Assembly: GCA_951406725.2 (NCBI GenBank)
Contig: OX597815.1
Location: 114,018,001 to 114,082,000, forward strand
Source of the DNA: Octopus vulgaris
Taxonomy: Eukaryota
DNA length: 64,000 bases
Direction: 5' to 3'
Both the position numbers and the translations under genes were made by a program. Below, in pieces: positions 25,001 through 28,000 of the stretch; positions within the stretch are counted from its first letter, which is position 1; each line of letters starts with the position of its first letter. The notes below the pieces were generated by a model that made no database searches, was not told the origin of the DNA, and saw only the letters and a list, made by a program, of their open reading frames with translations.

Positions 25001-28000
25001 AGATAAGCACAATTCTCTCGCTCCCTACTTAATGCAGAACATACTGTTATTGTTTAGCTTTTGGTCAGCAAAAGCTGAAAGCAAAAGTGTTGCTACCACG
25101 ATGGTCCCACTTTCTTCCCCAAGTACAGTGTATCGAGAATATATTTAATATGTCCTGGTTTTAAAACAGTAAAGTGTGATTTGAGGAAGATTTGATTGCT
25201 ATTTTTTGTGGGTTGAATTATTGCATAGATTCCTCATTGGGTCAATTTGGAAAGCATTAAAATAAGTAATTCTGAAATGTTTTAAAGAGACCACAAAGTG
25301 AAAAAGGAAAATGAATGGATTTTTTTTTTTTCTTTTTTTTTTTTTTTTGGCAATCCACCAACATAAAGCAAGATAAAACTTATCAAAAGGATTTAGAACA
25401 TGAAGCTAAATCTGAAACTGCAAGCAACACAGTGAAAGCCTGAGAAAATTTTAAAGCCACATTACATTGTTGCTAGATTAAGTCAAGCTAATAAAGAAGC
25501 CTCCATGTGGTTGCTCAAGCTACTAGAAAAAAAAAAAATAACAACCAAATCTCTCTTAAACTACACCCTACAATATTAGAAAAGGCATGCTGGAAAATAT
25601 GGCAGTGGGTTCCTTGATACAAGAGAAAGGCAGAATAGTCATGGCTAGAATGGATTTAACCAAAAGGCTACTTAATCAAGGCTCACCTGGTAATCAACAA
25701 TGACAACAACAATGAAATGAAACCACTATGCAAATGAAAGCAACTTAGCACTAGTTATGAGAAAAGATGAGCAAGAAAACATTGTTCAAGATGAAGCAAT
25801 CAATATCTTATACAGAAATGTAAAGTGAGATGATTTAACCCAAGTAAAAACAGTCGTATTCATATTTAGGCATACTGAGTAAATCACATTCACACACAAT
25901 CTGAACAGTATTGAACGGTGGATCAATAGCAAAGCTGTTTGAAGACTAGAAAAAAGATCTTACTGCTACCTCAAATGGGGAATTCACTAAGAAATCTCCA
26001 AAGTCACGTTTTGTACATGAAGACGCTTTTTCTTTATGAATGGTCATCTGGTATTGTTTGAATATATTGTAAGAATCTTCATATGAATACTTGAACTCTG
26101 TGGAGGCAGGACTAGTCAGAACCAGCTTAATCTATGCATGCCAATCCAAGGAGGTGGGAACATATGAAAAAGAATAGACAATGTAAAAACAGTTATTACC
26201 TTAAGGATCAATGGAGAGTCCACAAGGAAGCAGGTAAATTGCTTAACATTGGGTTTCTCAGGAGAATCATTATGCACATTTGTTTGGTAATTATAGTACA
26301 CCTGATGGCTTTCTTTAAATGTGGAGTTGAAGGCTGAACATTTAGGTTTTGATCGTATTAGCCTTATCTGAAAGAACAATTTGTGTGTGAAGATATGATA
26401 TTAACCGTTGTTGGACTATAAGTGACAGGTAAGTCAGTGGTCACTATGTCTTCAGGGAGGAAAATAATGGCACAGTCCACAAGACAAAGGATAGCGACAA
26501 CATTTAACCCTTGGATGACCAAATTTCTAATGAAGTACAATGTCATTACTTTCAATCAGTTTTGAAAATAATTAAGAATTTAGTGTGATTCAGTAAAATA
26601 ACTAATTACGTCATTTTTAAATTGGTGTTTAGAACATAGAAGTTCTTACACAAAATCATGGGAAGTGTTACCTTAACTATAAATAACAGGAGGTATTGTA
26701 ACATAGAAACGGGTAGTTTCAGGTGGGAAGGTATTAAAAAAGTAAAGGAGATTCAGGATGTGCTGCTCATGGACCTATAACTTTGCATACAGTGAGATAT
26801 TTTATTTTCATCAGGCACTTTCACTGTAGTTTATCAGAAAATACACAACTTCAATGGCCAAATAGAACTTGATGCTATTACCAATTTAGTATTGAGCAGT
26901 CATTAGTGAAATGGAAATTTAACCATTAACCCTTAACTGTAGAAAGCAGTTTTATATACCAATCTATATTTTGTTGAGGAATGTCATGTTTGAAACTGCT
27001 TTTTATTGAAATATGTCAAGTTTATTGAGACAATGTGACATGCGGAAAATACCAATTCTATTTTCTGATAGATATTTTACATCATTAAAGAAATAACCAA
27101 GAAATTTAATTTTGCAGTTAAAGGATTAAAAGCAAACACCCTAGTTACATAAATAGGGAAAACAGAAAATATCAGCAGAAAAACATAAATTCAGTTCAAA
27201 TTCATCCAGGATTAAGAAAAATGGTGAGATTGAATATCAAGTCAAATAAGTTATTTTTAAAATCAATACTTGTCATATTATGGTTGGCTCAACAAAATAA
27301 TGTAATAAGAAGATTACTCTAGAAACGAATTTTTACTTCAAGTGCACATAAAATTTTAAAAATTGTCTGATCATAATTTACCTCAAGTTTGTGAGCAACA
27401 TTTGGTTGTTGGGCAGGTTCATCAAGAAGTTCCTCAAGAGTTTTAGGTTGATTTTGATTTTTAGATGGTAGCTGAAGTAGAATATAGAAACAAAGCTGCA
27501 CGGACAAAGAAGCAATGGAAATGGTTTCATCACAAGATGAAGCCAAAGTCAATGACACAATAAAGCAAGTGTAAACAGAAAACTCATCTTTCAGTTTCTA
27601 CAAGAAGCTTTTTGGTAGCTTACTGTTTAGTGCAGGAAATTTCTTGTAAGAAATCTATCAGTTCAAAGCCCATCACAAACATCACTATGTGATCTACATA
27701 TATTTTTATTATCTCAGTGAATCTAGCTTAAAATGAGGGCACTCCAGTAACAGAAGTCAATAAAGGAGTCTTTACGTAGTTGCTAGATATGCAAGAAACA
27801 GCCAATTCTAGCACAACTCATGCCCTGATCTTACAAACAAATGTGATGATCAAAGCTGGAATGTCTGTGATCATGAACCCATTTCCTTTTTTTCTCAAAC
27901 TTTCTAAACAATTAGAGGTTTCAAATGCTCATAATTAACTCTGTAATATCACTAACTCTGATGCTACAATTTTAAAAATAACATCTGTTAATGCTCCATG

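What the first reader, a model, noticed from the sequence alone, without database searches (positions are those of the whole stretch)
26132..26199. 68-nt spacer between exons 6A and 6B looks built for steric mutual exclusion
Seen (minus strand): GTAATAACTGTTTTTACATTGTCTATTCTTTTTCATATGTTCCCACCTCCTTGGATTGGCATGCATAG. It has no AG except the last one. The best branch-point-like motifs (TAAC, TTAC) are within about 20 nt of the 6A donor, and the pyrimidine tract follows them rather than abutting the AG. Including both exons or skipping both keeps the frame, so NMD cannot enforce exclusivity. Known: a branch point too close to the upstream 5' splice site blocks joining of mutually exclusive exons in alpha-tropomyosin and alpha-actinin. 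Inference: the same mechanism operates here.
Basis: partly seen in the sequence, partly recalled or inferred. Interest (0 to 1): 0.7.

Follow-up and report, generated by a model that had tools for sequence, protein, structure and literature searches.

The report
Too-short intron between ATE1 twin exons
An octopus gene for the enzyme that tags proteins with arginine carries two versions of one exon only 68 bases apart, and related animals keep this gap at 34-56 bases, likely because it is too short to be spliced out, so each message would use one version or the other, whereas mammals enforce the same choice with RNA base-pairing.

Summary
The 68-nt spacer is real. It separates exons 6A (168 nt) and 6B (162 nt) of the single-copy Octopus ATE1 gene. 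The exon pair is already known: RefSeq annotates both isoforms, and Martinez Gomez 2021 names it in octopus as the bilaterian-age homologue of human 7a/7b.

The steric reading is well supported but not shown. In 31 of 33 ATE1 loci from other animals the second exon follows after only 34-56 nt of unrelated sequence. The other 81 ATE1 intron gaps there are about 89 nt or more. The 15 short octopus introns measured are 86-218 nt. Three other octopus species keep 68 nt. No competing RNA pairing was found.

TAAC overlaps the donor, a normally placed TTCAT (A35, -34) was missed, and 15 of 26 orthologous spacers have internal AGs. Any normal branch point lies 45 nt or less from the donor, so length alone would suffice.

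Against: 12 invertebrate gene models join both exons, and no branch point or minigene data exist.

Verdict: a new member of a known kind (too-short intervening intron), notable because mammals use RNA structure for the same exon pair. The scan noted this mechanism before in other genes.

The parts
26200..26367 (-). ATE1 exon 6A (168 nt, phase 0; homologue of vertebrate exon 7a, KP-type)
   Evidence: RefSeq isoform X1 of O. sinensis and O. bimaculoides; 5-6A and 6A-7 joints in 4 of 4 runs
26132..26199 (-). 68-nt intervening spacer, GT..AG, single AG; YTNAY adenosines at +16 (26184) and +35 (26165); pyrimidine tract about +9..+52; GCATG at -10
   Evidence: no indel and one substitution (26177) in three other species
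25970..26131 (-). ATE1 exon 6B (162 nt; RefSeq X2 adds one Val codon, 165 nt; homologue of vertebrate exon 7b, Cys-type)
   Evidence: RefSeq X2/X3 in two Octopus species; contigs start at 26131 with 28 unlaid letters in X8 and X12; 46% ungapped nt identity to 6A
27382..27471 (-). ATE1 exon 5 (upstream constitutive exon)
21820..22001 (-). ATE1 exon 7 (downstream constitutive exon)
20607..20715 (-). 109-nt intron 8, the shortest spliced intron of the gene (control)
   Evidence: joint 'skips 109' in 4 of 4 runs
18837..43651 (-). ATE1 coding span, 10 coding exons plus the alternative; single copy in the genome

Best explanation
The 68-nt spacer separates two homologous alternative exons of octopus ATE1 and is likely too short to be spliced out, so 6A and 6B would be mutually exclusive by steric hindrance. 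Shown: the anatomy, the two annotated isoforms, and spacers of 34-68 nt wherever the spacer could be measured. Inferred: U1/U6 at the 6A donor and U2 at any branch point in the spacer (at most 45 nt apart for a branch 19 nt or more from the AG) cannot assemble one active spliceosome. Each site still works alone with distant partners: the 6A donor with exon 7, and the 6B acceptor with exon 5. Selection would act on length, not sequence, because both exons are 3n and NMD cannot remove a spliced double-exon message. RNA that keeps the spacer carries a premature stop and would be degraded. Which exon is chosen likely depends on trans factors acting on the weak 6B acceptor; this is untested.
For:: 31 of 33 animal ATE1 loci have exon B 34-56 nt after exon A (26 distinct spacers, median 48.5; 4 lineages at 80% exon-A identity); 81 other ATE1 intron gaps in these loci are about 89-1800 nt (HMM estimates; one 68-nt estimate dropped as a tandem repeat of the exon end in L029); 15 short octopus introns measure 86, 90, 102, 102, 108, 109, 114, 120, 120, 126, 139, 166, 171, 199 and 218 nt, none 85 or less; no indel in the spacer in three other species; in all 4 runs position 26131 lies inside or at the start of one listed contig, and no 68-nt joint is among the 15 joints shown; none of the 8 Octopus cluster members has both exons. 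PMC6692369 (passages): about 50 nt minimum from 5'SS to branch site; a 70-nt intron with 46 nt was not spliced in HeLa extract. PMC4165533 (passages): five 3n C. elegans clusters are excluded by too-short introns.
Against: No branch point or minigene data. The 50-nt threshold is vertebrate; the annelid Capitella has a median intron of 57 nt (10.1101/2020.05.07.078311, passages), so 68 nt is spliceable in some spiralians. The octopus minimum rests on only 15 introns picked from 425 exon hits. The octopus spacer is longer than all 26 orthologous spacers. A55 (-14) lies beyond 50 nt from the donor. 14 of the 120 proteins listed carry both exons in tandem (11 molluscs, one of them partial; 1 shrimp; 2 cartilaginous fishes); their spacer lengths and RNA support are unknown. 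45 joints were not shown and contigs drop rare forms. No 6B-7 joint was shown either, so 6B use rests on RefSeq models. 19 of the 23 distinct spacers that could be grouped at 80% outside three small lineages fall in one clade, so the loci are not independent.
Confidence: 0.75

Rival explanations
1. Competing RNA structures, as in human ATE1 (R1 and R4 competing for R3), hide one acceptor at a time, and the short spacer is incidental.
For: This is the proven mechanism for the homologous human exons (PMC7797038; first part, passages and Discussion read). Both octopus exons show 0 substitutions in 330 nt against 9 in 406 nt of exons 7-9 in organism C (Fisher p=0.005), so some extra nucleotide-level constraint exists.
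Against: The 501-nt region folds no better than shuffles (z -0.29). The spacer pairs with introns 5 and 6 no better than shuffles (18 and 21 of 25 shuffles as good); the best of 10 tests was 2 of 25. In orthologous loci the mean duplex z is -0.54 upstream (2 of 24 below -2) and +0.35 downstream (0 of 26). The spacers share no evident motif. Intron 6 was scanned in full but pairing to farther introns was not tested.
Confidence: 0.1
2. The intron can be spliced, but RNA-binding proteins repress one exon while activating the other, using the weak 6B acceptor, so double inclusion is only rare.
For: The 6B acceptor has the poorest pyrimidine tract of the gene. A GCATG (RBFOX-type motif, recalled) sits 10 nt before it and is unchanged in three other species. 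6A is the assembled spliced form in 4 of 4 runs. Double-exon gene models exist in other animals.
Against: GCATG occurs at 1.5 per kb in ATE1 introns (about a 10% chance in 68 nt) and in 0 of 26 orthologous spacers. Protein control does not explain why spacer length stays at 34-68 nt while neighbouring introns are 89-7600 nt.
Confidence: 0.12
3. 6B is a rarely used or decaying copy and exclusivity needs no mechanism.
For: No 6B-7 joint was shown. Two loci (L014, L015) have no B exon within 3000 and 2681 nt.
Against: 6B is intact, unchanged in three other species and annotated in two. It is present in full-length Logan proteins of other probable cephalopods (P0010, P0011, P0131). B-type exons occur across molluscs.
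Confidence: 0.03

Closest known systems
C. elegans mutually exclusive clusters with too-short intervening introns (egl-15 5B/5A 14 nt, let-2 9/10 30 nt, bet-2, gly-5, gly-6; PMC4165533, passages)
   Same: Homologous 3n exons separated by an intron below the species' apparent minimum; no NMD needed.
   Different: Here the spacer is 68 nt against an apparent octopus floor near 86 nt (15 introns), a narrower margin, and it is untested.
Distant-branch-point steric exclusion: alpha-tropomyosin exons 2/3 (cited in PMC6692369; original not read) and OGDH 4a/4b (PMC7969005, passages); alpha-actinin recalled
   Same: 5'SS-to-branch distance below about 50 nt; intervening intron size restricted in evolution.
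   Different: Those introns are long enough to splice and depend on a mapped distal branch point and a long AG-free tract. Here the whole intron is short, the branch point is unmapped, and AG exclusion is not conserved in orthologues.
Human ATE1 exons 7a/7b (PMC7797038)
   Same: Same gene and region, same order (KP-type then Cys-type); first and second copies separate on one branch of the tree.
   Different: Human exons are 129 nt (43 aa) against 162-168 nt here (the 3' boundary differs by about 11 codons). Human exclusion uses R1/R3/R4 base-pairing inside a longer intervening intron, which was not found here.

Membership tests
Tandem-duplicated mutually exclusive exons | Two homologous adjacent exons of the same phase and similar length | tested here: met
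   168 and 162 nt, phase 0, 27% aa and 46% nt identity
Tandem-duplicated mutually exclusive exons | Each exon is spliced between the same flanking exons | tested here: inconclusive
   6A shown by joints in 4 of 4 runs; 5-6B inferred in 2 of 4; 6B-7 only from RefSeq models in two species
Tandem-duplicated mutually exclusive exons | Double inclusion absent or rare | tested here: inconclusive
   No 68-nt joint among 15 shown of 60; contigs only. No double isoform among 8 Octopus proteins
Steric exclusion by a too-short intervening intron | Intervening intron shorter than the species' spliceable introns | tested here: met
   68 nt against 86 nt or more in 15 short octopus introns; 34-56 nt against about 89 nt or more in orthologous loci. 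Small sample
Steric exclusion by a too-short intervening intron | Lengthening the intron restores exon-exon joining | not testable with these tools
   needs a minigene
Distant-branch-point steric exclusion (alpha-tropomyosin, OGDH type) | Mapped branch point under about 50 nt from the upstream donor and far from the AG | not testable with these tools
   Candidates A16 (-53) and A35 (-34); no lariat data
Distant-branch-point steric exclusion (alpha-tropomyosin, OGDH type) | Conserved extended AG-exclusion zone | tested here: not met
   True in octopus, but 15 of 26 distinct orthologous spacers have internal AGs
Competing RNA structure exclusion (human ATE1, docking/selector) | Conserved element complementary to two competing sites | tested here: not met
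   No pairing above shuffles in octopus or 26 orthologous spacers; pairing beyond introns 5-6 not tested
Orthologue of vertebrate ATE1 7a/7b event | First and second copies group across phyla | tested here: inconclusive
   One change on the tree, in 98% of bootstrap trees, support 75/84 (not starred), 43 columns, midpoint root; agrees with PMC8373072, disagrees with the PMC7797038 Discussion
Frameshift/NMD-enforced exclusion | Double inclusion or skipping shifts the frame | tested here: not met
   Both exons are 3n

The most novel reading that the evidence does not exclude
One exon pair of bilaterian age has changed its locking device. The ancestral and spiralian state is a spacer held below spliceable length (34-68 nt), and vertebrates replaced it with competing RNA helices after the intron grew and the exon boundary moved by 11 codons. 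ATE1 would then be a direct test case for how exclusivity mechanisms turn over, and spacer length would scale with each lineage's minimum intron size.
Probability: 0.35. Interest if true: 0.62.

Novelty: new member of a known kind. Interest (0 to 1): 0.44.

Why it matters
ATE1 7a/7b is the textbook human case of exclusion by RNA structure, and the paper that showed it says invertebrates lack 7b. The homologous pair in octopus and 31 other animal loci is instead separated by a very short spacer of free sequence. If steric exclusion holds, one conserved splicing outcome is reached by two different mechanisms, and a simple minigene can test it. The mechanism class and the exon pair are each already known. 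Searches listed no paper describing a short spacer in invertebrate ATE1; the library lacks most subscription journals.

Tried and rejected
Protein search with exon 6A alone found nothing (weak test). No listed holder was on record as RNA, which is no evidence either way; the runs laid showed spliced joints.

RNA-structure tests were negative. Spacer conservation alone is not significant against flanks (1 of 68 vs 13 of 297, p=0.48). Frame selection on orthologous spacers: 19 shift, 4 stop in frame, 3 open of 26, no clear depletion. A 3-nt microexon to explain the extra Val of RefSeq X2 was sought in intron 6: no candidate.

Literature values for the octopus minimum intron were not found. The Dscam exon 17 steric paper was not held.

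Rows dropped: L034 (truncated) and L035-L041 (16-21 residue matches) from the 41 loci. Eight of 19 small genome regions (L124, L134-L140) showed no clear short intron. Kinase candidates with a gain under about 11 bits, including marginal 125, 67 and 69 nt calls, were treated as noise because such gains were common at exon ends whose next exon lies kilobases away; no shuffled control was run for this. No complex or structure prediction was run.

Full report
Observation. The quoted minus-strand sequence occupies 26199-26132 exactly, is 68 nt, and has its only AG at the end. AG-free 64-nt windows make up 89 of 2823 deep-intron windows of the gene, and none of the other nine introns is AG-free in its last 68 nt. 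The pyrimidine tract lies in the middle, and the 6B acceptor is the weakest of the ten examined. The branch-point claim is incomplete. TAAC has its A at +7, YTNAY matches lie at A16 and A35 (-34), and further adenosines lie at 37, 45 (-24) and 55 (-14).

Gene. Exon 6B matches Octopus arginyl-tRNA--protein transferase 1. Eight database proteins from O. sinensis/O. vulgaris and O. bimaculoides carry either 6A (X1, X4) or 6B (X2, X3), none both. The gene is single-copy. Its introns are 7622, 2612, 3151, about 2195, 1014, 68, 3968, 1004, 109 and 1473 nt.

RNA. Contigs of four runs show exon5-6A and 6A-exon7 joints in 4 of 4. Two runs have contigs that begin at 26131 with 28 unlaid letters, which I read as an exon5-6B joint (inferred). 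Two have contigs running unspliced from 6A through the spacer into 6B. No 68-nt joint and no 6B-7 joint is among the 15 joints shown; 45 were not shown.

What is known of the pair. PMC8373072 (passages) lists ATE1 'in common octopus' among events of bilaterian age. The supplement of PMC9741552 dates it to Bilateria and treats the fly events as convergent. PMC7797038 (first part, passages, Discussion) shows that human exclusion uses competing helices and states that invertebrates lack 7b. My protein set shows two versions in gastropods, bivalves, shrimp, acorn worm, sea urchin and vertebrates. A 43-column tree of 63 rows separates first from second copies with one change (98% of bootstrap trees, support 75/84, midpoint root; 8 rows unlabelled). 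This fits one old duplication but does not prove it. The vertebrate exon is 11 codons shorter at its 3' end.

Conservation of the spacer. In DNA of three other species (runs X18-X20) the spacer has no indel and one shared substitution, and both exons have none; a fourth run (X17) shows no difference in the spacer. A metagenome scan with an exon-A alignment gave 41 loci. Of the 33 usable ones, 31 have exon B directly after A with GT..AG spacers of 34-56 nt (26 distinct, median 48.5), and two lack B. They fall into 4 lineages at 80% exon-A identity, one of them dominant; the hosts are unnamed. The spacers share no evident sequence, and 15 of 26 have internal AGs. The other 81 ATE1 intron gaps in these loci are about 89-1800 nt. 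Length is constrained and sequence is not, which is what steric exclusion predicts.

Is 68 nt too short for octopus? Five family searches gave 425 exon hits. Sixty kinase regions yielded introns mostly of 1-3 kb and only two confident ones under 330 nt (199, 218). Nineteen regions picked for close or stop-containing hits gave 12 introns of 86-171 nt with continuous protein across the junction. With the 109-nt ATE1 intron, 15 short introns were measured and none is under 86 nt. This resembles the vertebrate floor near 76 nt (PMC9438311, passages) more than the 57-nt median of Capitella. In HeLa extract a 70-nt intron with a 46-nt donor-branch distance is not spliced (PMC6692369, passages), and most branch sites lie 19-35 nt from the AG (PMC5378181, passages). 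In this spacer any such site is 45 nt or less from the donor.

Rivals. RNA structure: no folding or duplex signal above shuffles in octopus or in the orthologous loci. Protein-mediated repression probably sets the ratio but does not explain the length constraint. NMD cannot act on a spliced double-exon message but would act on one that keeps the spacer (stop at 26118).

Results against the reading. Fourteen of 120 listed proteins join both exons, 12 of them invertebrate gene models of unknown support. The octopus spacer is longer than any orthologous one measured. The intron sample is small, the threshold is borrowed from vertebrates, and nothing was tested at the bench.

Verdict. A real, annotated, ancient mutually exclusive exon pair whose exclusivity in octopus is likely enforced by a too-short intervening intron (0.75). 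The mechanism class is known (PMC4165533; PMC7969005). The contrast with the RNA-structure mechanism of mammalian ATE1 was not found in the searches. Supplements other than that of PMC9741552 were not read. Interest 0.44.

Noticed in passing
window 25937-26380: One difference in 444 nt between the window and organism C against 13 in 297 flanking nt (p=5e-5). Both exons have no synonymous change, unlike exons 7-9. The extra constraint is unexplained (splicing elements or RNA editing context are possible).
   Followed up: partly
window 25964-25969: RefSeq X2 of two species adds one Val after 6B, implying a poor GC donor at 25966, while a strong canonical donor 3 nt further on (which would make 6B 168 nt like 6A) is in none of the 8 models. 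No microexon candidate was found.
   Followed up: partly
window 25321-25348: A genomic A-run in intron 6 on the minus strand; one RNA contig through 6B ends beside it (25358, X1), which suggests oligo-dT priming on unspliced RNA.
   Followed up: no
L014 and L015, after exon A: No exon B is detected before the next constitutive exon about 760 nt on, so the second copy appears lost or decayed in this lineage.
   Followed up: partly
L003-L033 (large lineage): Exon A is one codon longer and exon B lacks about six N-terminal residues, so the two copies differ in length there.
   Followed up: no
L141 (G000:C29:6752500-6759000): Three tandem copies of one myosin head exon about 2 kb apart, a probable three-way mutually exclusive cluster in a myosin heavy chain gene.
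   Followed up: partly
window 36279-37031 and 38420-38926: Fragments that look like the C-terminal part of a LINE-type reverse transcriptase ORF in ATE1 intron 1 (resemblance recalled). A high-copy repeat lies at about 28690-28810.
   Followed up: no
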